Shown piece by piece: positions 53,130-62,079 of a DNA stretch of 64,000 bases. Position 1 is the first letter of the stretch. Every line of letters starts with the position of its first letter. Source of the DNA: Escherichia coli (lineage in GTDB: Bacteria > Pseudomonadota > Gammaproteobacteria > Enterobacterales > Enterobacteriaceae); the NCBI RefSeq assembly GCF_048403405.1, contig NZ_CP183129.1. One strand, written 5' to 3'. Below the pieces are notes generated by a model. That model was given only the letters and a program-made list of their open reading frames with translations. It searched no databases and had not been told where the DNA came from. The translations under genes were made by a program, and so were the position numbers.

Positions 53130-53537
53130 ATGAAAAACGAAACCTTCGGTGCTCGCCTCTTATACAGGCGTAAAAAATTAAAACTGTCTCAGGCCGCATT
53201 AGGTAAGCTGGTCAAAGTGGCTCACGTAACAATTTCTCAATGGGAAAGAGATGAAACACAGCCAGCGGGGAAGAGATTATTCGCACTGAGCCAGGCGCTT
53301 CAGTGCTCGCCGACTTGGCTTCTTTTTGGAGATGAAGATAAGCAACCAGGCGAACCGATCCCAGATAATCAGCCAGTTAATCTGACAGAAGATCAAAAAG
53401 AGTTGCTTCAACTGTTCGACGCACTGCCTGAGTCAGAGCAAAAGGCTCTGTTGTCAGAGATGCGTGCTCGAGTTGAGAATTTCAACAAACTTTTTGAAGA
53501 ACTACTCAAAGCTCGCAAAAGAAGCGCAAATAAATAA
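53130..53537 (+). CDS. dicA: prophage repressor (DicA-like, HTH-XRE, no S24 peptidase domain)
   Basis: 135-aa ORF; HTH (LSQAALGKLVKVAHVTISQWE); C-terminal SPTWLLFGDEDKQP ... LPESEQ ... EMRARVENFNKLFEELLKAR matches recalled DicA. Confidence 0.8.
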   Translation: MKNETFGARLLYRRKKLKLSQAALGKLVKVAHVTISQWERDETQPAGKRLFALSQALQCSPTWLLFGDEDKQPGEPIPDNQPVNLTEDQKELLQLFDALPESEQKALLSEMRARVENFNKLFEELLKARKRSANK

Positions 53538-53589
53538 CCCTCCCTTTTTTTTCGCCACTCTCTGTAATAAAAAGCACAAACTTTCAAAT

Positions 53590-53660
53590 GCTTGTGTTTT
53601 TTACATCAAAAAACTTAGGTTTTTCTACACAAAAAGCTTGACCATAATTCTTAGGTTATT
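53590..53660. promoter_or_regulatory. second operator/promoter region (CTTAGG repeats) downstream of repressor gene
   Basis: ACTTAGGTTTTTC ... CTTAGGTTATTC repeats with embedded TTGACC; likely promoter of the dicB-type operon. Confidence 0.45.
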
Positions 53661-53743
53661 CTAAATTCTACTCATCAAGACACCGCACGGTGTTCTCAGC
53701 AAACAGTTCCGCTACCCTGGCGTTAAGGGGAAATGAGGTCAGC

Positions 53744-53896
53744 ATGGATACTATCGATCTTGGCAACAACGAATCTCTGGTATGCGGCGTGTTTCCCAAC
53801 CAGGACGGCACGTTTACCGCGATGACGTATACCAGAAGCAAAACGTTTCAAACTGAAGCTGGCGCGCGTCGCTGGTTAACCAGAAACACTGACTGA
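53744..53896 (+). CDS. small protein, YdfA-like (50 aa)
   Basis: MDTIDLGNNESLVCGVFPNQDGTFTAM... with GAGG RBS; first gene after repressor as in the Qin dicB operon. Confidence 0.5.
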   Translation: MDTIDLGNNESLVCGVFPNQDGTFTAMTYTRSKTFQTEAGARRWLTRNTD

Positions 53897-53907
53897 TGAG
53901 GTTGACG

Positions 53908-54282
53908 ATGGAATTTAAAGATTTACCAGTACCATTCCAGGAAATGGCATCGAATGTGGTTCGCTCTCAACTGGCGACTCTTGACCTGAGTACCGTAGAA
54001 AAAGAAACCATCGATACTATATCCGGTAACGTGCGTCGTGCCTTTATCGGTCTGTACGAAGAGAAGCAGCTCTCTGATAACCAGGATTTACATGAAAAAT
54101 ACTTCCTGGAATTAATGGACATCATTAATAAAGGATTTGGCTTGTTAATGAAAAAGAAAGGGATTCGAATAGCTCCCCTTGAAAATCATTTTACAGCGAG
54201 CAGTATTAATTCCTGTGATTTAAAGCATCACACATCCGATGGGAAAGTTGAATCAAACAACAAAATATCAATTAATCATTAA
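53908..54282 (+). CDS. hypothetical protein (124 aa), AT-rich
   Basis: ORF with GAGG RBS before MEFKDL; no family recognised. Confidence 0.45.
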   Translation: MEFKDLPVPFQEMASNVVRSQLATLDLSTVEKETIDTISGNVRRAFIGLYEEKQLSDNQDLHEKYFLELMDIINKGFGLLMKKKGIRIAPLENHFTASSINSCDLKHHTSDGKVESNNKISINH

Positions 54283-54584
54283 TTTATTCACAGGTGAGGT
54301 AGAGTGCGTGCGCCGGACACGGATAAGAATCCGGCACTGACAGTTTACTAAAAAGGATATATCCCTGAAAAGTCAGGGCATAACACGAAAGCGCCCGGCG
54401 AAGTTAGTCTCTCTGTATAGGTCGTCGTTAAATTTAATTCGATCGTGCGCTTCCGGTTGTGGCAATCCGCGAAATGGCGCGGCGGTAAGTATGGCTGGGG
54501 TTTCCTCCATTGCTCCAGAAAATGCACCGGGTTGTCAGGTTGACCATACGCTTAAGTGACAGCCCCGCCACAATACCCATGTGT

Positions 54585-54637
54585 AGTCTTTGGTGGCATC
54601 AGTTCTACTCCGTGACTGCTCTGCCACCCTTTTTAAA
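54585..54637 (+). ncRNA. dicF: DicF-like small RNA (3' stem-loop/terminator region conserved)
   Basis: TTTGGTGGCATCAGTTCTACTCCGTGACTGCTCTGCCACCCTTTTT closely matches recalled DicF 3' portion, with compensatory stem changes GGCGG/CCGCC to GGTGG/CCACC. Confidence 0.55.
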
Positions 54638-54812
54638 GTGAATTTTGTGATGCGGTGAATGCGGCTAAGCGCACGCGGAACAGTTAAAACCAAAAACAGT
54701 GTTATGGGTGGATTCTCTGTATCCGGCGTTAATTGTTAACTGGTTAACGTCACCTGGAGGCACCAGGCACCGCATCAACAAAGTTCACTTCGGTGATGAA
54801 AGGTAAGAGAAA

Positions 54813-55667
54813 ATGTTGAATGTAGCTATTGAAAACCAGAACGGGTGGAATTATAGTGCACCTGCACCTCATAAAACGGGTGCCGGGCGTGGAAACCCGG
54901 AATTCAATCAAGCGCATAACCGCGCTCAGGCGGTTTTTTTATGCGTCAAGCACAGCCACATTCAGATTATGGTGGGGCGTGCAGGGCAGCTGCAAGGCTG
55001 GCCGGATTCTTGGTTGACCGGTATTTCCACCCCTGTACGCCTCACCACCCTTATGGTCGTGGAAAACCTTGGTGGTGAGTTATTAATACTCAACCAAGAG
55101 GCTGCCATTATGGCTACTATCCCTACCCTTTCTCACCCTGACGTAACCATCGAAAATGGTCGCGCTGTCACTACGTCTGTTGCGGTTGCAGAGTTCTTCC
55201 GCAAAATGCACAAGGACGTTCTGCGCAAAATTGAAACGCTAGAATGCTCTGAAGATTTTAACGAGCGCAATTTTACGCCCGTTACCTACACCGACGCCAA
55301 AGGCGAAAAACGCCCCATGTACCAAATCACCAAAAACGGCTTCGTTTTCCTGGTGATGGGGTTCACAGGTAAAAAAGCCGCAACTTTCAAAGAAGCCTAC
55401 ATCGCTGAGTTCGATCGCATGGAGGAAGAACTGCGCCAGAATAACGCCCCGTCTCCCGACAAAATGATTCACGGGGACGGACGCACCCTGGTTATCCGTC
55501 TCGACGAACACGGCAATATCAAATTCACTGAAACCGTTCCTGACGGCGCAATGGTCTGCACCCTGGATACCTTCCGGTTTTATCTGGAGAAACAAGGATG
55601 GACTCTTGTAAACCGGAGCGCAATTAAAAATATGACTGTGGAGCAATTGCTAAAAATTCATTGTTGA
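54813..55667 (+). CDS. Rha-family phage regulatory protein (possible antirepressor); start uncertain
   Basis: C-terminal 185 aa carry Rha-like motifs (AVAEFF.K.H..VLR.I ... MGFTGKKA..FKEAYI.EFDRMEEEL); alternative start at 55110. Confidence 0.65.
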   Translation: MLNVAIENQNGWNYSAPAPHKTGAGRGNPEFNQAHNRAQAVFLCVKHSHIQIMVGRAGQLQGWPDSWLTGISTPVRLTTLMVVENLGGELLILNQEAAIMATIPTLSHPDVTIENGRAVTTSVAVAEFFRKMHKDVLRKIETLECSEDFNERNFTPVTYTDAKGEKRPMYQITKNGFVFLVMGFTGKKAATFKEAYIAEFDRMEEELRQNNAPSPDKMIHGDGRTLVIRLDEHGNIKFTETVPDGAMVCTLDTFRFYLEKQGWTLVNRSAIKNMTVEQLLKIHC

Positions 55668-55677
55668 GGACGCGATA

Positions 55678-55866
55678 ATGGAAACGTCACTACCAAACGT
55701 TAATACGTCTGACGGGTGCTTTAATATTGGTGTTCTGCTCAGTAACAGGGATTTCACCGAGGATGCAATCAATATGAGAAAATATGAACCCTACCTGCTG
55801 AATGACAATTCCATACTCTCCAGAATTGCCCTTCTTAAACTCGGTATTTTCGGAGAGTGGCGATGA
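55678..55866 (+). CDS. dicB: DicB-like cell division inhibitor (62 aa)
   Basis: LPNVNTSDGCFNIGV..SN..FTEDAINMRK matches recalled DicB; follows DicF-like RNA. Confidence 0.7.
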   Translation: METSLPNVNTSDGCFNIGVLLSNRDFTEDAINMRKYEPYLLNDNSILSRIALLKLGIFGEWR

Positions 55867-56066
55867 ACACATTATTCGTACTCATTCTGACTGTACATCT
55901 CAATACTGGTGAGTCGCTTGATGCAATCACCGGCATGTACAACTCAATGAAAGAATGCATGGCTGCCGCAGCGGAACAGAAAATTCCCGGCAACTGTTAT
56001 CCGGTCGATAAAGTTATTCACATGGACAATAACGAAATCCCGGCGGGGCTTAAAACAGCACCGTAA
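55863..56066 (+). CDS. small protein, YdfD-like by position
   Basis: ORF overlapping dicB-like stop; hydrophobic N-terminus. Confidence 0.45.
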   Translation: MNTLFVLILTVHLNTGESLDAITGMYNSMKECMAAAAEQKIPGNCYPVDKVIHMDNNEIPAGLKTAP

Positions 56067-56143: not shown

Positions 56144-58600
56144 ATGAGCACTGATAAAGAAGAAATTGCACTATATTACGAAGCCAAAAATGACAAAATC
56201 AGAAAACGTCTTGGAATTAAAGGCGGTTTTTACTGGCGCACAGCAAAAAAATTATCGGTTGCAATATCACGCGGTGTTGTCGCAATGGACGATGCCGGAT
56301 TTGACAAAGAGGATTTTAAAAAACCTGTTCGCGTCCATTTACCCGTTGTGAATGACCTTCCTCCGGAAGGCGTGTTTGATACCGAATTCTGCAACCGATA
56401 CGAAAAGGGCGGTGAAGATGGTATCACAATGGTACTTATCGCGCCCTCGCCCTCTGTTCAGGATAAACCAGCCAGCACTGACAATACCAACGTCAACGGC
56501 GAAGACATGGCTGAGATTGAGGAGAACATGCTCCTGCCGGTTTCAGGTCAGATTCTGCCTGTTCGATGGCTGGCACAGCACGGCAGCGAAAAACCGATCA
56601 CACACGTTTCGCGGGACGAACTGCGCACATTACATAACGCACAGGATGAAAAACTTCCCGCCGTTACCGCGCTGGCCATCTCAAATAAAGCAGCGCAACT
56701 CGAACCGCTGGAAATTCGCGATCTCCACAAACTGGTTCGTGACACGGACAAAGTTTTCCCTAATCCTGGTAATTCAGACCTGGGACTGATGACTGCTTTT
56801 TTCGAAGCATACCTGGGCGCTGACTACACCGATCGCGGTCTGCTGACAAAAGAGTGGATGAAAGGAAATCGTGTTTCACGCATCACCCGCACGGCTTCCG
56901 GTGCTAATGCCGGTGGAGGGAACAAAACCGATCGCAATCCGAATTTAGTACACACCTTCGATACGCTGGATGTGGAGATTGCAGCGGCCACACTTCCGAT
57001 GGATTTTAATATTTATGAAATTCCGGGCAGCGTTTATCGTCGCGCAAAAGAAGTCGTCCGGAAGAAAGAAAGTCCGTTCAAAGAATGGTCCGCAGCACTT
57101 CGCGCAATCCCGGGTATCCTGGATTATTCCCGCGCCGCTATTTTTGCACTTATCCGAAGCGCACACCCTGAATTTTATCACTACCCGGGACGCCTTCAGG
57201 GGTATATCAACGCCTATTTGACGGAAACTGATCACGAGAACCCTACCGAGGAAACTCTCGCTGCTGCACGACATACACCGGAAAAAGATATCCTGGAAGA
57301 AGTTAACCGCGAACTGGCTGCTGAACGCGAAACAGAAGAAGAAAAAAATAATGAGGAAAAATCACAACCGTCTGACGCAATGGCAGATGAACAGGCAACG
57401 ACTGAAGCAATGGAGCCGAATACAACTGAACATCGCCAGGACACGCAATCGCTGGATACTCAGGCACAGATAGATCCGGTTAATCAGGTAAAAGTTACCG
57501 CTGACGAAGTAAACAAAATTATGCAGGCAGCCAATATCAGCCAGCCTGACGCCGATAAGTTGCTTGCGGCCTCTCGCGGAGAATTTGTTGCAGGGATTAG
57601 CGACCCGAATGATCCGAAATGGGTCAAGGGGATGGAAACCCGCGATTCTGTGAACCAGAACCAGCAAGAAACGGAACAGAACGGCCAGAAAGCGGAACAA
57701 AACAGCCCAAATGCGTTACAAAACGAGCCAGAAACGAAACAACCTGAACCAGTAGTGCAACAGGAACCGGAAAAGATCTGCACCGCCTGCGGTCAGACCG
57801 GCGGCGGCAACTGCCCTGATTGTGGCGCGGTGATGGGCGACGCAACATACCAGGAAACATTCAATGAAGAGAATCAGGTTGAAGTTCAGGAAAATGATCC
57901 GGAGGAAATGGAAGGCACTGAACATCCACACAAGGAGAACCCTGGCGGCAATCAGCATCACGATAGCGATAGTGAAACTGGCGAGGCGACAGATCACTCA
58001 GTTAAGGTGAACGGTCATCATAAAGGCACATCCACCAGCGGGACGTGTGACCATCTAATGATCGACCTTGAAACCATGGGAAAAAATCCAGATGCCCCGA
58101 TTATCTCAATAGGTGCAATATTTTTCGATCCGCAAACCGGAGATATGGGACCGGAATTTAGTAAGACTATCGATCTGGAAACTGCTGGCGGAGTCATTGA
58201 TCGGGACACCATTAAATGGTGGCTTAAGCAATCACGCGAAGCGCAATCTGCCATTATGACCGATGAAATCCCGTTAGATGATGCACTGTTACAATTGCGG
58301 GAATTTATCGACGAAAACTCCGGCGAATTTTTTGTTCAGGTCTGGGGAAATGGAGCCAACTTCGACAACACGATTTTGCGCCGTTCATACGAACGGCAGG
58401 GGATCCCCTGCCCGTGGCGTTACTACAACGATCGCGATGTACGCACAATCGTTGAGCTGGGGAAAGCCATAGACTTCGATGCCAGAACGGCTATTCCATT
58501 CGAAGGTGAGCGCCATAATGCACTTGATGACGCCCGTTACCAGGCAAAATACGTTTCAGTTATCTGGCAAAAACTGATCCCGAGTCAGGCTGATTTTTAA
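56144..58600 (+). CDS. large RecE-like prophage protein with C-terminal DEDDh 3'-5' exonuclease domain and central zinc ribbon
   Basis: 818 aa; C-terminal Exo I (LMIDLETMG), Exo II (GNGANFD), Exo III (H-x4-D: ERHNALDDARY) motifs; central CTACG ... CPDCG; acidic linker. Confidence 0.55.
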   Translation: MSTDKEEIALYYEAKNDKIRKRLGIKGGFYWRTAKKLSVAISRGVVAMDDAGFDKEDFKKPVRVHLPVVNDLPPEGVFDTEFCNRYEKGGEDGITMVLIAPSPSVQDKPASTDNTNVNGEDMAEIEENMLLPVSGQILPVRWLAQHGSEKPITHVSRDELRTLHNAQDEKLPAVTALAISNKAAQLEPLEIRDLHKLVRDTDKVFPNPGNSDLGLMTAFFEAYLGADYTDRGLLTKEWMKGNRVSRITRTASGANAGGGNKTDRNPNLVHTFDTLDVEIAAATLPMDFNIYEIPGSVYRRAKEVVRKKESPFKEWSAALRAIPGILDYSRAAIFALIRSAHPEFYHYPGRLQGYINAYLTETDHENPTEETLAAARHTPEKDILEEVNRELAAERETEEEKNNEEKSQPSDAMADEQATTEAMEPNTTEHRQDTQSLDTQAQIDPVNQVKVTADEVNKIMQAANISQPDADKLLAASRGEFVAGISDPNDPKWVKGMETRDSVNQNQQETEQNGQKAEQNSPNALQNEPETKQPEPVVQQEPEKICTACGQTGGGNCPDCGAVMGDATYQETFNEENQVEVQENDPEEMEGTEHPHKENPGGNQHHDSDSETGEATDHSVKVNGHHKGTSTSGTCDHLMIDLETMGKNPDAPIISIGAIFFDPQTGDMGPEFSKTIDLETAGGVIDRDTIKWWLKQSREAQSAIMTDEIPLDDALLQLREFIDENSGEFFVQVWGNGANFDNTILRRSYERQGIPCPWRYYNDRDVRTIVELGKAIDFDARTAIPFEGERHNALDDARYQAKYVSVIWQKLIPSQADF

Positions 58601-58661
58601 TGTTCAACCGTCGCCAGTTGTCGTTGATATTCTGCAACTGGCGCGTTCCGGAGTGATAGCC

Positions 58662-58931
58662 ATGAGCGAACAGTACCTGATAACGCTCGACGAGTGGAAA
58701 CCAAAACGGTTCAGTCTCCCAATAACAAACACTACCCTGGTGAAATACGGAAAACTAGGATACATCGTTCCAAGACCACAAAAAATTCGTGGGCGTTGGC
58801 TGATAGATCGCCGAGCAGTATTTGTTGGGCCTGGTGAAACGGGAATTGCGCCGGAAATTCATACTGGCGATGATGATGCACTGAAGGAGATTTTAACTCA
58901 TGTCACCGAGGCCACGAAAAAACAGCACTGA
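58662..58931 (+). CDS. xis: excisionase Xis-like
   Basis: Small basic ORF overlapping int start; pattern L.TL.EW ... TV.R ... P.P.K.GR similar to lambda Xis. Confidence 0.6.
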   Translation: MSEQYLITLDEWKPKRFSLPITNTTLVKYGKLGYIVPRPQKIRGRWLIDRRAVFVGPGETGIAPEIHTGDDDALKEILTHVTEATKKQH

Positions 58932-60018
58932 CGTAGCCGGTCTTTACGAAAAGTTTGATCGCAGAACTGGCAGAGTTTACTACCAGTATAAAAATCCTGT
59001 GACTGGAAAATTTCACGGACTCGGAACAGACAAAGGTAAGGCAGAAAAAATCGCTTCCACAGCCAATCAGCGAATAGCTGCAGCAGAAGCTGAATATTTC
59101 ATGCGCAAAATTGATGAAAGTCCGTCAGCAACAAAACGTCGGGGTATCAGATTAAAGGCATGGGTTGATCGATATCTGAAAATACAGGACACGCGACTGA
59201 AAAATGGAGATATTGCAGCTACAACTCACAAAGAAAAAACTCGAATGGCTGCATACCTGGTTTCCCGTCTGGGAAACCACCCATTGAAAGAACTGGAAGT
59301 AAGAGACTTTGCATTAATACTGGATGAGTGGCTGGATAAAGACATGGTCAGCACAGCGAGAGTAAATCGTGGATTATGGGTTGATATTTATAAAGAAGCA
59401 CAGCATGCAGGGGAAGTTCCTCCTGGATGGAATCCTCCGGAGGCTACCCGTAAACCGATCCCTAAAGTAACCAGAGCCAGGCTCACCATGGAAGACTGGC
59501 AAAAAATTTACAATGCAACGCCTGAAAAACACTTTATCCGTAACGCAATGCTTCTTGCGATTGTTACTGGTCAGCGCCGTGATGACATTTGCCACATGCG
59601 TTTTTCAGATGTGTGGAACGAACACTTGCATATCACCCAGGGAAAAACCGGAATGCGTCTGGCGTTACCGCTTACACTACGCTGTGATGCCATTGGGATA
59701 ACGTTAAAAGAAGTTATTGATGGGTGCCGAGACAGAATATTAAGTCCATATCTAATCCATAGTCGGCACCAGAAACAACCGAAGCCGATGAGTAAAGACA
59801 ACCTGAGCGACTACTTTGCCAAAGCACGGGATCTGGCTGGGATAATTCCACCAGCAGGAAAAACTCCGCCAACATTTCATGAACAACGCTCTCTATCAGA
59901 ACGGCTGTACCGTGCACAGGGTATCGATACAAAAACATTACTAGGACATAAAGTCCAGGCAACCACCGATCGCTATAACGATACTCGAGGTCAGGAATGG
60001 GTTAAGTTGGTTATTTGA
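58900..60018 (+). CDS. int: tyrosine integrase (lambda Int family)
   Basis: 372-aa ORF; Arg-His-Arg-Tyr catalytic residues (VTGQRRDD, HEQRSLSERLY, LLGHK...TDRYNDTRGQEW); adjacent to attR. Confidence 0.9.
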   Translation: MSPRPRKNSTDVAGLYEKFDRRTGRVYYQYKNPVTGKFHGLGTDKGKAEKIASTANQRIAAAEAEYFMRKIDESPSATKRRGIRLKAWVDRYLKIQDTRLKNGDIAATTHKEKTRMAAYLVSRLGNHPLKELEVRDFALILDEWLDKDMVSTARVNRGLWVDIYKEAQHAGEVPPGWNPPEATRKPIPKVTRARLTMEDWQKIYNATPEKHFIRNAMLLAIVTGQRRDDICHMRFSDVWNEHLHITQGKTGMRLALPLTLRCDAIGITLKEVIDGCRDRILSPYLIHSRHQKQPKPMSKDNLSDYFAKARDLAGIIPPAGKTPPTFHEQRSLSERLYRAQGIDTKTLLGHKVQATTDRYNDTRGQEWVKLVI

Positions 60019-60184: not shown

Positions 60185-60979
60185 ATGATCGGTCGACTGC
60201 TTCGCGGCGGTTTTATGACCGCTATCTACGCGTACCTGTATATTCCAATCATTATTTTGATTGTGAACTCGTTCAACAGCTCGCGCTTTGGCATCAACTG
60301 GCAGGGTTTTACCACTAAATGGTATAGCCTGCTGATGAACAACGACAGTCTGTTGCAGGCAGCTCAGCATTCATTGACGATGGCGGTGTTTTCAGCGACG
60401 TTTGCTACGCTTATCGGTTCACTGACTGCAGTTGCGCTGTACCGTTATCGCTTTCGCGGTAAACCGTTCGTTAGCGGAATGCTGTTCGTGGTGATGATGT
60501 CGCCAGATATTGTGATGGCGATTTCGCTGCTGGTGCTGTTTATGCTGCTGGGTATTCAGCTTGGCTTCTGGTCGCTGCTGTTCTCGCATATCACCTTCTG
60601 CCTGCCATTTGTGGTGGTGACAGTGTATTCGCGCCTGAAAGGTTTTGACGTGCGAATGCTGGAAGCGGCGAAAGATCTCGGTGCCAGCGAATTTACCATT
60701 CTGCGAAAAATCATTCTGCCACTGGCAATGCCAGCGGTAGCGGCGGGCTGGGTGTTAAGCTTTACCCTGTCGATGGACGATGTAGTAGTTTCTTCGTTCG
60801 TCACCGGACCAAGCTATGAAATTCTGCCGTTAAAAATTTATTCGATGGTCAAAGTCGGCGTATCGCCGGAAGTTAACGCGCTGGCAACCATATTACTGGT
60901 GCTGTCGCTGGTGATGGTAATTGCCAGCCAGCTTATTGCTCGTGATAAAACGAAAGGTAACACAGGGGACGTTAAATGA
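60185..60979 (+). CDS. potC: spermidine/putrescine ABC transporter permease PotC
   Basis: 264-aa multi-TM permease; overlaps potD start. Confidence 0.9.
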   Translation: MIGRLLRGGFMTAIYAYLYIPIIILIVNSFNSSRFGINWQGFTTKWYSLLMNNDSLLQAAQHSLTMAVFSATFATLIGSLTAVALYRYRFRGKPFVSGMLFVVMMSPDIVMAISLLVLFMLLGIQLGFWSLLFSHITFCLPFVVVTVYSRLKGFDVRMLEAAKDLGASEFTILRKIILPLAMPAVAAGWVLSFTLSMDDVVVSSFVTGPSYEILPLKIYSMVKVGVSPEVNALATILLVLSLVMVIASQLIARDKTKGNTGDVK

Positions 60980-62022: not shown

Positions 62023-62079
62023 TTCAGCAAGCGGGCGGTGGTATTACCGCCCGTTTTTTATTTAGCAAGGATGTGGCTA

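What the first reader, a model, noticed from the sequence alone, without database searches (positions are those of the whole stretch)
56144..58600. 818-aa RecE-like protein with a DEDDh 3'-5' exonuclease domain and no RecT/Bet partner
The C-terminal roughly 190 aa carry clear DEDDh exonuclease motifs (DLETMG, GNGANFD, H-x4-D), preceded by a zinc ribbon (CTACG…CPDCG) and a long acidic linker. The large N-terminal region resembles, from memory only, the non-catalytic N-terminus of RecE-type prophage proteins. No annealing protein (RecT/Bet) or Gam is present between this gene and xis. A DnaQ-like nuclease in the exo position is unusual and could act in recombination, host-DNA degradation or anti-defence.
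Basis: partly seen in the sequence, partly recalled or inferred. Interest (0 to 1): 0.5.

Follow-up and report, generated by a model that had tools for sequence, protein, structure and literature searches.

The report
RecE scaffold carrying a DexA-type exonuclease
This is an intact early gene of a common E. coli prophage in which the usual RecE nuclease has been replaced by a 3'-to-5' exonuclease and the RecT partner is missing; the design is real and very widespread, but nobody appears to have tested what it does.

Summary
ORF 56144-58600 (+) encodes 818 aa. Residues 1-617 are homologous to Rac RecE residues 1-588. Residues 637-808 are a full-length Rv2179c/DexA-type DEDDh domain (Pfam E 5e-67) with the catalytic residues D641, E643, D741, H791 and D796. 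DNA homology to recE stops at about window 57995, just upstream of RecE's solved PD-(D/E)XK domain. This is a clean swap of the nuclease domain.

The gene is the last gene of the early-left operon of a Rac/Qin-like lambdoid prophage between potB and potC, directly before xis-int. I found no RecT, Erf, Bet, Sak or Gam anywhere in the prophage.

It is not unusual. The DEDDh module occurs in 4047 of 5426 complete E. coli genomes, against 1730 for the Rac-type RecE nuclease. It sat directly upstream of the excision/integration genes in all 11 loci examined.

The most likely function is a Mg-dependent 3'-to-5' DNA exonuclease of the lytic programme that works without an annealase. The biological role is unresolved. 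A published anti-T4 defence claim for a 37%-identical homologue (EcD/HREX) is not supported here by its signature residues or by gene position.

The protein is catalogued but uncharacterised, and of moderate-to-low interest.

The parts
56144..58600 (+). Complete 818-aa gene (RecE-type scaffold plus DEDDh exonuclease), identical to RefSeq WP_001542183.1 'exonuclease'
56144..57352 (+). N-terminal RecE-type non-catalytic scaffold, aa 1 to about 403. It contains PF06630 Exonuc_VIII at aa 55-189 (nt 56306-56710). The predicted folded domains are 1-100, 130-260 and 270-375, and no solved structure resembles them.
57353..57478 (+). Acidic segment predicted to be disordered, aa about 404-445 (pLDDT below 50)
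57479..57778 (+). Conserved middle module, aa 446-545 (KVTADEVNKIMQAANISQPDADKLLAASRGEFVAGISDPNDPKWVKG...). It is shared with Rac RecE and, at about 97% identity, with the YdfE-type 823-aa exonucleases of Tritos and mEp460.
57779..57823 (+). Cys4 knuckle C546/C549/C557/C560 (C-x2-C-x7-C-x2-C). It is also present in Rac RecE and is optional in the family.
57824..58051 (+). Acidic linker, aa 561-636. DNA and protein homology to Rac recE ends inside it at about nt 57995 (aa 617, RecE residue 588).
58052..58567 (+). DEDDh 3'-5' exonuclease domain of the Rv2179c/DexA family, aa 637-808, with catalytic residues D641, E643, D741, H791 and D796
58653..60018 (+). xis (58653-58931) and int (58900-60018), immediately downstream. 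The prophage end and potC follow at 60185.
53130..56066 (+). Upstream part of the same leftward early operon: DicA-type HTH repressor gene (53130-53537), DUF1391, a hypothetical gene, DicF sRNA (54578-54629), isrK/C4-like RNAs (54864-55052), Rha, DicB (55678-55866) and a DUF1482/YdfD-like gene (55863-56066)

Best explanation
This is an intact delayed-early gene of a Rac/Qin-like lambdoid prophage inserted between potB and potC. The protein has three parts. The first is a RecE-type non-catalytic N-terminal scaffold. The second is a conserved middle segment with an optional Cys4 knuckle and disordered acidic linkers. The third is a C-terminal DexA/Rv2179c-family DEDDh domain. That domain sits exactly where Rac RecE carries its PD-(D/E)XK 5'-3' nuclease, and recT has been lost along with the RecE nuclease.

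Inferred mechanism: on prophage induction the gene is transcribed from the repressor-controlled leftward operon, together with DicF, DicB and the YdfD-like gene. The flexibly tethered DEDDh domain then removes nucleotides from free 3' ends by two-metal-ion catalysis, most probably on DNA. The scaffold presumably directs it to the same target or partner that RecE uses.

It therefore acts as a stand-alone 3'-end trimming or degrading nuclease of the lytic programme. It is not one half of an exonuclease-plus-annealase recombination pair. Any recombination of this phage must rely on host RecA pathways and the phage RusA.

Shown here: the architecture, the swap junction, the catalytic residues, the gene context and the distribution. 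Inferred: enzymatic activity, DNA as the substrate, timing of expression and biological role.
For: Pfam PF16473 matches aa 637-808 at E 5e-67 and PF06630 matches aa 55-189. The NCBIfam RecE model matches only aa 1-620, corresponding to model positions 1-602 of 877. Identity to Rac RecE is 56% over aa 58-617 against RecE 50-588. The DNA is about 90% identical up to about nt 57995 and unrelated after that. RecE's solved nuclease domain covers residues 605-866.

The nearest solved relative of the C-terminal domain is T4 DexA, a 3'-5' DNA exonuclease. The DEDDh pentad aligns with DexA and is conserved in 22 of 23 complete domains of relatives.

The window is 99.7-99.9% identical to E. coli 7/2, whose annotation shows no annealase or Gam in the prophage. 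A PHROG scan of ten early-region ORFs, mostly hypothetical or DUF proteins, found none either.

The DEDDh gene lay directly upstream of the excision/integration genes in all 11 loci examined (xis-int in ten, an integrase in the short contig L019), and none had recT. These include the phages mEp460 and Tritos. No strong private promoter lies upstream of the gene.

Across 50%-identity clusters, the same scaffold is joined to DEDDh in 14 long representatives and to PD-(D/E)XK in 22. The Rac-type nuclease domain is annotated with recT in every listed hit.
Confidence: 0.55

Rival explanations
1. Prophage-encoded defence of the HREX type. The DEDDh domain would selectively degrade hydroxymethylcytosine-modified DNA of superinfecting T-even phages and so protect the lysogen.
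For: Kang et al. 2025 (PMC12153337) report that an E. coli DexA homologue, EcD, cuts T4 DNA but not unmodified DNA and protects against T4. They also report that bacterial DexA homologues are most common in Escherichia. I recovered an EcD-like protein using their primer. It carries A78 as they describe and is 37% identical to this C-terminal domain (E 3e-36).
Against: By alignment, the residues they assign to 5hmC recognition are not kept. DexA W152 corresponds to Y761 and D169 to A775, and the tetramer residue D90 is retained as D713. Those positions vary across the lambdoid clade. The gene lies at the far end of a repressor-controlled early operon with no strong promoter of its own, unlike typical lysogen-expressed defence genes. 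PADLOC gives no hit. The EcD-like gene itself sits in the early operon of a P2-like prophage.
Confidence: 0.15
2. A genuine recombination exonuclease. It would process DNA ends for homologous recombination like RecE, using a host or unrecognised phage annealase or RecA loader recruited by the shared scaffold.
For: It has the same scaffold and operon slot as RecE. T4 DexA takes part in recombination-dependent intron homing (as summarised in PMC12153337). In 13 relative clusters the scaffold is joined to a roughly 280-aa domain with sub-threshold Rad52_Rad22 matches in 5 of 8 members. That would tie the scaffold to annealing functions.
Confidence: 0.15
3. A 3'-5' exoribonuclease acting on RNA, either host or phage transcripts or the genomes of RNA phages, by analogy with ISG20-like TONDO nucleases.
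For: The Pfam family founder Rv2179c is an RNase, and PGAP names relatives '3'-5' exoribonuclease'. DEDDh nucleases with auxiliary domains carried on prophages block the RNA phages MS2 and Qbeta (PMC13344964).
Against: The closest solved relative by sequence is the DNase DexA. The match to the RNase_T/ISG20-type family is only marginal (PF00929, E 0.0014) against E 5e-67 for PF16473. The domain replaces a DNA nuclease on a DNA-processing scaffold.
Confidence: 0.1
4. A decaying, non-functional remnant of recE in a cryptic prophage.
For: Many database entries are partial or split. One example is three ORFs of 456, 157 and 183 aa in L012. K-12 Qin carries only a truncated ydfE.
Against: The full-length gene is intact in at least 1272 complete genomes and in inducible phages. 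The catalytic pentad is conserved in 22 of 23 complete domains. The prophage here has complete structural, lysis and replication modules.
Confidence: 0.03

Closest known systems
Rac prophage RecE (exodeoxyribonuclease VIII), partner of RecT
   Same: The N-terminal roughly 590 residues are homologous (56% identity, aa 58-617 against RecE 50-588). That region includes the conserved middle motif, the Cys4 knuckle and the acidic linker. Both genes sit near the distal end of the leftward early operon, close to xis-int.
   Different: The catalytic PD-(D/E)XK 5'-3' domain (RecE 605-866, PDB 3H4R) is absent and replaced by a DEDDh 3'-5' domain. The protein scores below the NCBIfam equivalog cut-off (909 against 1269 bits). 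recT, ralR and rcbA are absent downstream.
Phage T4 DexA (exonuclease A; PDB 8KEL/8KEN)
   Same: Same PF16473 DEDDh family and the same five catalytic residues. Both are early phage genes. DexA is the only solved structure found by sequence search (E 1.6e-6).
   Different: Identity is only 26%. DexA is a stand-alone 227-aa protein with extra loops. Its W152 and D169 (5hmC recognition according to PMC12153337) are Y761 and A775 here.
EcD / 'HREX' E. coli DexA homologue (Kang et al. 2025, PMC12153337)
   Same: Same Pfam family, complete catalytic pentad, and carried on a prophage.
   Different: EcD is a stand-alone 189-aa protein, 37% identical, located in the early operon of a P2-like prophage. 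Its signature residues (Trp at the DexA 152 position, Ala at the DexA 90 position) differ from this protein.
YdfE-type 823-aa exonucleases of Qin-like prophages and of phages Tritos and mEp460
   Same: The middle module plus DEDDh domain (aa about 448-818) are about 97% identical. The operon slot is identical: DicF, DicB, YdfD, exonuclease, xis, int.
   Different: The N-terminal roughly 440 residues are unrelated. They are YdfE_N-type, as in the K-12 ydfE pseudogene, and not the RecE/PF06630 type.
Mycobacterium tuberculosis Rv2179c (founder of PF16473)
   Same: Same Pfam family.
   Different: From my own knowledge, Rv2179c is a cellular stand-alone 3'-5' exoribonuclease. It was not found by sequence search of the PDB at E up to 1, so it is more distant than DexA.
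ISG20-like TONDO nucleases (PMC13344964)
   Same: A DEDDh exonuclease joined to a variable auxiliary domain and carried on prophages or plasmids.
   Different: A different DEDDh subfamily (ISG20/RNase_T type). They are shorter than 500 aa, act on RNA phage 3' UTRs, and have no RecE scaffold.

Membership tests
Rv2179c/DexA-like DEDDh exonucleases (Pfam PF16473) | Full-length match to the family profile | tested here: met
   aa 637-808 match model positions 2-177 of 177, E 5.1e-67, 225 bits
Rv2179c/DexA-like DEDDh exonucleases (Pfam PF16473) | The five catalytic residues D, E, D, H, D in the three Exo motifs | tested here: met
   D641, E643, D741, H791 and D796 align with T4 DexA. They are conserved in 22 of 23 complete domains of relatives.
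Rv2179c/DexA-like DEDDh exonucleases (Pfam PF16473) | Metal-dependent 3'-5' exonuclease activity | not testable with these tools
   Needs a biochemical assay
RecE / exodeoxyribonuclease VIII (NCBIfam NF007259 equivalog) | Homology of the N-terminal non-catalytic region | tested here: met
   aa 1-620 match model positions 1-602 of 877, E 3.9e-273. Identity to Rac RecE is 56%.
RecE / exodeoxyribonuclease VIII (NCBIfam NF007259 equivalog) | Whole-protein score at or above the curated cut-off | tested here: not met
   908.7 bits against a cut-off of 1269
RecE / exodeoxyribonuclease VIII (NCBIfam NF007259 equivalog) | C-terminal PD-(D/E)XK 5'-3' nuclease domain (RecE 605-866, PDB 3H4R) | tested here: not met
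   There is no alignment beyond RecE residue 588. 3H4R is not among the PDB hits for this protein, although it is found with RecE itself.
RecE / exodeoxyribonuclease VIII (NCBIfam NF007259 equivalog) | Adjacent recT annealase gene | tested here: not met
   The next genes are xis and int. No annealase was found in the prophage.
Two-component phage recombinases (exonuclease plus single-strand annealing protein: Red, RecET, Erf or Sak systems) | An annealing protein encoded in the same phage | tested here: not met
   The annotation of the near-identical strain 7/2 prophage shows none, and the PHROG scan of ten early-region ORFs shows none.
HREX / EcD-type modification-dependent exonuclease (PMC12153337) | Trp at the DexA W152 position and an acidic residue at D169, assigned to 5hmC recognition | tested here: not met
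   These positions are Y761 and A775 in MAFFT alignments, and the nearest acidic residue is D777. This rests on alignment only.
HREX / EcD-type modification-dependent exonuclease (PMC12153337) | Loss of the tetramer-forming Asp (DexA D90 replaced by Ala, as A78 in EcD) | tested here: not met
   D713 is retained at that position. The EcD-like protein has A78.
HREX / EcD-type modification-dependent exonuclease (PMC12153337) | Protection against T4 and selective cleavage of 5hmC DNA | not testable with these tools
   Needs plaque and nuclease assays
Known anti-phage defence systems (PADLOC-DB 2.0) | Match to any defence-protein model | tested here: not met
   0 families at E up to 0.01
ISG20-like TONDO nucleases (PMC13344964) | DEDDh domain of the ISG20/RNase_T subfamily | tested here: inconclusive
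   PF00929 RNase_T matches only at E 0.0014, under the much stronger PF16473 match. No TONDO sequences were available for a direct comparison.

The most novel reading that the evidence does not exclude
The RecE-type N-terminal scaffold may be a general delivery module that lambdoid phages combine with interchangeable effectors. The effectors seen are a 5'-3' PD-(D/E)XK nuclease with RecT, a 3'-5' DEDDh nuclease without any annealase, and possibly a Rad52-like annealing domain. On this reading, the DEDDh version is an unstudied, annealase-independent system. It is the commonest version, present in about 75% of E. coli genomes. Its real job in the early lytic programme would be to destroy 3'-ended nucleic acids of the host or its defences, for example reverse-transcriptase-made defence DNA, and not to promote recombination.
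Probability: 0.2. Interest if true: 0.6.

Novelty: new variant of a known kind. Interest (0 to 1): 0.33.

Why it matters
RecE/RecT is a textbook recombination pair and a workhorse of recombineering, yet the function of RecE's N-terminal 590 or so residues is unknown. This locus shows that nature reuses that scaffold with a nuclease of opposite polarity and no annealase. That version is far more common in E. coli than RecE itself: 4047 against 1730 of 5426 complete genomes, with up to 7 copies per genome.

Working out what the scaffold binds, and what a tethered 3'-5' exonuclease does for a temperate phage, would explain one of the most abundant uncharacterised prophage genes in E. coli and in pathogenic lineages (O157:H7, O104:H4). 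It would also test the recent claim that DexA homologues are defence genes. The finding is a catalogued gene with a predictable enzymatic class, so the surprise is moderate.

Tried and rejected
1. K-12 Qin YdfE as the truncated N-terminus of this protein: rejected. There is no similarity. YdfE matches the N-terminus of the Tritos/mEp460 variant instead.

2. EcD of Kang et al. as the same protein: rejected. EcD starts MIDTET (primer), is not among the 120 closest homologues, and the recovered EcD-like protein is only 37% identical.

5. RecT fusions to the scaffold (P0124, P0257). The matches begin in the middle of the RecT model, so I read them as recE-recT deletion fusions and not as designed fusions.

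6. The zinc ribbon as a core feature: rejected. It is present in only 7 of 81 long relatives.

7. A private promoter for the gene. The consensus scan found nothing beyond chance.

8. Literature searches for PF16473, for Rv2179c with phage, for ydfE, and for DexA with prophage gave no functional study of this fusion. One search was wasted because 'RecE' matched 'receptor'.

9. The profile search of the PDB with alignment A2 is circular for DexA, because DexA was in the alignment. I did not use it as evidence.
Full report
**Observation**

The window carries an ATG-initiated ORF at 56144-58600 on the + strand (818 aa), preceded by a GAGG ribosome-binding motif.
- DLETMG at 641-646
- GNGANFD at 735-741
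- HNALDD at 791-796
- a C-x2-C-x7-C-x2-C motif at 546-560
- strongly acidic stretches at 380-460 and 575-636

Profile searches rule out chance:
- Pfam PF16473 (Rv2179c-like 3'-5' exonuclease) covers aa 637-808 end to end at E 5e-67.
- PF06630 (enterobacterial exodeoxyribonuclease VIII) covers aa 55-189 at E 2e-27.
- The NCBIfam RecE equivalog model matches aa 1-620 at E 3.9e-273, but only over model positions 1-602 of 877. The score of 909 bits is below the curated cut-off of 1269.
- PHROGs places the protein in several 'exonuclease' families.
- The only solved structure found by sequence is phage T4 DexA, a 3'-5' DNA exonuclease (E 1.6e-6; annotation).

**Anatomy and the swap junction**

Against Rac RecE from E. 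coli K-12, the protein is 56% identical over aa 58-617, matching RecE 50-588. This stretch includes the motif KLLAASRGEFV.GISDPNDPKWVKG, the Cys4 knuckle and the acidic linker. No similarity exists after that.

At the DNA level, the last 300 nt or so before the junction are about 90% identical. Homology stops at about window 57995. RecE's only solved part is residues 605-866, the PD-(D/E)XK nuclease (3H4R). From my own knowledge, RecE 588-866 is the minimal fragment used in recombineering.

The break therefore lies in the linker just upstream of the catalytic domain. The 5'-3' nuclease has been exchanged for a DEDDh domain that begins at aa 637. The five catalytic residues (D641, E643, D741, H791, D796) align with DexA and are conserved in 22 of 23 complete domains from relatives.

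**Context**

The whole window is 99.7-99.9% identical to the chromosome of E. coli strain 7/2, so that annotation can be used. The gene belongs to a lambdoid prophage of about 48 kb between potB and potC. The prophage has complete head, tail, lysis, Q, RusA and O/P-like modules.

The leftward early operon reads in this order:
1. DicA-type repressor gene
2. DUF1391
3. a hypothetical gene
4. DicF sRNA
5. isrK/C4-like RNAs and Rha
6. DicB
7. DUF1482 (YdfD-like)
8. this gene
9. xis
10. int

No RecT, Erf, Bet, Sak or Gam is annotated anywhere in the prophage. A PHROG scan of ten early-region ORFs, mostly hypothetical or DUF proteins, found none. No strong private promoter precedes the gene. In Rac, by contrast, recE is followed by recT, ralR, rcbA, xisR and intR.

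**Distribution and modularity**

The DEDDh module's DNA is found in 4047 of 5426 complete E. coli genomes (8098 places, up to 7 per genome). The Rac-type RecE nuclease domain is found in 1730 genomes (1827 places), and every listed hit is annotated with recT. The full-length gene is present at 80% coverage or more in 1272 genomes. It also occurs in phage records.

In phages mEp460 and Tritos and in O157:H7, O104:H4 and other genomes, an 823-aa version occupies the same slot (DicB, YdfD, exonuclease, xis, int). That version shares aa about 448-818 with this protein at about 97% identity. Its N-terminal part is unrelated and matches the K-12 ydfE pseudogene.

Other arrangements also exist:
- A stand-alone 189-aa version lies directly before xis-int in a Salmonella prophage.
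- A split version (456, 157 and 183 aa) exists in E. coli.
- More distant fusions (45% identity and lower) keep the same position.

In all 11 loci examined, the DEDDh gene is immediately upstream of the excision/integration genes and no recT is present. It is xis-int in ten of them. In the short contig L019 an integrase follows.

A search of 1.8 billion representative proteins with aa 1-620 found 271 clusters. Among the long representatives, 14 end in DEDDh and 22 end in a RecE-type PD-(D/E)XK domain. A further 13 end in a roughly 280-aa domain of unknown type. The Cys4 knuckle occurs in only 7 of 81 long representatives, with either nuclease type.

**Literature**

I found no functional study of this fusion.

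Kang et al. 2025 (PMC12153337) solved T4 DexA. They reported that an E. coli homologue, EcD, cleaves T4 DNA but not unmodified DNA and protects against T4 ('HREX'). They also noted that bacterial DexA homologues are most frequent in Escherichia.

Using their forward primer I recovered an EcD-like 189-aa protein from viral contigs. It has A78 as they describe, and its 3' end matches their reverse primer except for one base. It is 37% identical to this C-terminal domain. It lies in the early operon of a P2-like prophage, between cox-like regulators and the Dam methylase and gpA genes.

By alignment, the residues that paper assigns to 5hmC recognition are not kept here. W152 corresponds to Y761 and D169 to A775. 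The tetramer residue D90 is retained as D713. These positions vary across the lambdoid clade. PADLOC gives no hit.

Santos et al. 2026 (PMC13344964) show that ISG20-like DEDDh nucleases with auxiliary domains block RNA phages. That is a different DEDDh subfamily. PF00929 matches here only at E 0.0014.

**Structure predictions**

The third C-terminal module seen in relatives carries a motif (GEAQKKSLTDAIKKALSLLGFSADIWLGLYD) that reminded me of Rad52/Sak annealases. The evidence is inconclusive:
- Pfam Rad52_Rad22 matches 5 of 8 members, but only at E 0.01-0.1.
- A profile search of the PDB found nothing.

This remains a lead and is not a result.

**How it most likely works**

Shown here:
- a RecE-type scaffold
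- flexible acidic linkers
- a complete DEDDh active site of the DexA family
- a position at the end of a repressor-controlled early operon
- no annealase in the prophage

Inferred: on induction the protein is made along with DicF, DicB and the YdfD-like protein. It then removes nucleotides from free 3' ends, most probably of DNA. The scaffold would deliver the nuclease to whatever RecE's N-terminus recognises.

Because 3'-5' digestion removes the 3' tails that annealases and RecA need, and because no annealase is present, it is unlikely to be a RecET-like recombination initiator. I put about 0.8 on 3'-5' exonuclease activity and about 0.6 on DNA as the main substrate. No specific biological role gets more than about 0.35. 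The candidate roles are trimming or turnover of linear DNA in the lytic cycle, HREX-type defence, host-assisted recombination, and action on RNA. They are weighed in the rival list.

DexA-family genes sit in early lytic operons of four unrelated phage types: T4, Rac/Qin-like lambdoid phages, a Salmonella lambdoid phage and a P2-like phage. This favours a function that benefits the phage during lytic growth over a lysogen-expressed defence.

**Comparison, novelty and verdict**

The protein is a member of the PF16473 DEDDh family, since both the profile and the catalytic residues are met. It is not a member of the RecE equivalog family. It fails that family's score cut-off, lacks the PD-(D/E)XK domain and lacks recT.

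It is best described as a nuclease-swapped variant of RecE. It is already catalogued in RefSeq, Pfam and PHROGs as 'exonuclease', and it is extremely common. It has no experimental characterisation that I could find.

Interest is moderate to low. The main value is that a textbook protein's unexplained N-terminal scaffold turns out to be reused with an opposite-polarity nuclease in most E. coli genomes, and that is directly testable.

Noticed in passing
window 54578-55110: Rfam finds DicF (54578-54629), an isrK Hfq-binding RNA (54864-54940) and a C4 antisense RNA (54965-55052). The last two lie inside the 5' part of the annotated 284-aa Rha ORF (54813-55667), whose Rha-like sequence only starts near 'MATIPTLSH' (about 55110). 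The annotated start is probably too far upstream. The region looks like a P1/P7-type c4-ant or Salmonella isrK-anrP anti-repressor cassette.
   Followed up: no
window 54699-54782 and 55678-55866: RefSeq annotates a truncated dicB fragment (missing its C-terminus) upstream of the isrK/C4/Rha cassette, and an intact dicB downstream of it. This suggests the cassette was inserted into the dic operon with duplication of the dicB 5' end.
   Followed up: no
relatives P0201, P0129, P0183, P0200, P0204, P0227, P0255, P0263 (alignment A4); loci L020, L021: Thirteen clusters join the YdfE/RecE-type scaffold to a roughly 280-aa C-terminal domain (PHROG 2489/7838, labelled 'exonuclease'). It carries a Rad52/Sak-like motif and gives sub-threshold Pfam Rad52_Rad22 matches. 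A Sipho_Gp157 gene follows it. It may be an annealing protein fused to the scaffold. This is not confirmed.
   Followed up: partly
L031 6401-6970 (- strand), with L030, L034, L037, L044, L045: The protein matching the published 'EcD' primers (189 aa, MIDTETLGNGPDAAIF..., A78) is encoded in the early operon of a P2-like prophage, between cox/C-type regulators and the Dam methylase and gpA nickase genes. The 'bacterial defence exonuclease' of PMC12153337 is therefore a prophage early gene.
   Followed up: partly
L012 737-3127: In one E. coli assembly the equivalent of this gene is split into three consecutive ORFs (456, 157 and 183 aa). The last ORF starts at MIDLETMG, which corresponds to M639 here. 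Complete 180-aa 'MIDLETMG...' proteins are also annotated elsewhere (P0039, P0046, P0049). I did not examine whether M639 can serve as an internal start in the full-length gene.
   Followed up: no
relative P0137 (752 aa): One DEDDh-type relative has D-K-A-H-D instead of D-E-D-H-D at the catalytic positions. It is possibly an inactivated nuclease kept for another role.
   Followed up: no
relatives P0124 (703 aa) and P0257 (615 aa): Here the RecE scaffold is fused in frame to a RecT domain, but the match begins at RecT model position 92 or 149. These are most simply explained as recE-recT deletion fusions in decaying prophages.
   Followed up: partly
window 62054-62059: Compared with E. coli strain 7/2, the window lacks a roughly 700-bp IS200C insertion between potD and ymfA. 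Otherwise the two are collinear.
   Followed up: no
Salmonella loci L008-L011, 4743-6570: The stand-alone DEDDh gene in a Salmonella prophage is preceded by a DndB-like (PF14072) gene and by a DUF2303/YfdP module in the same early operon.
   Followed up: no
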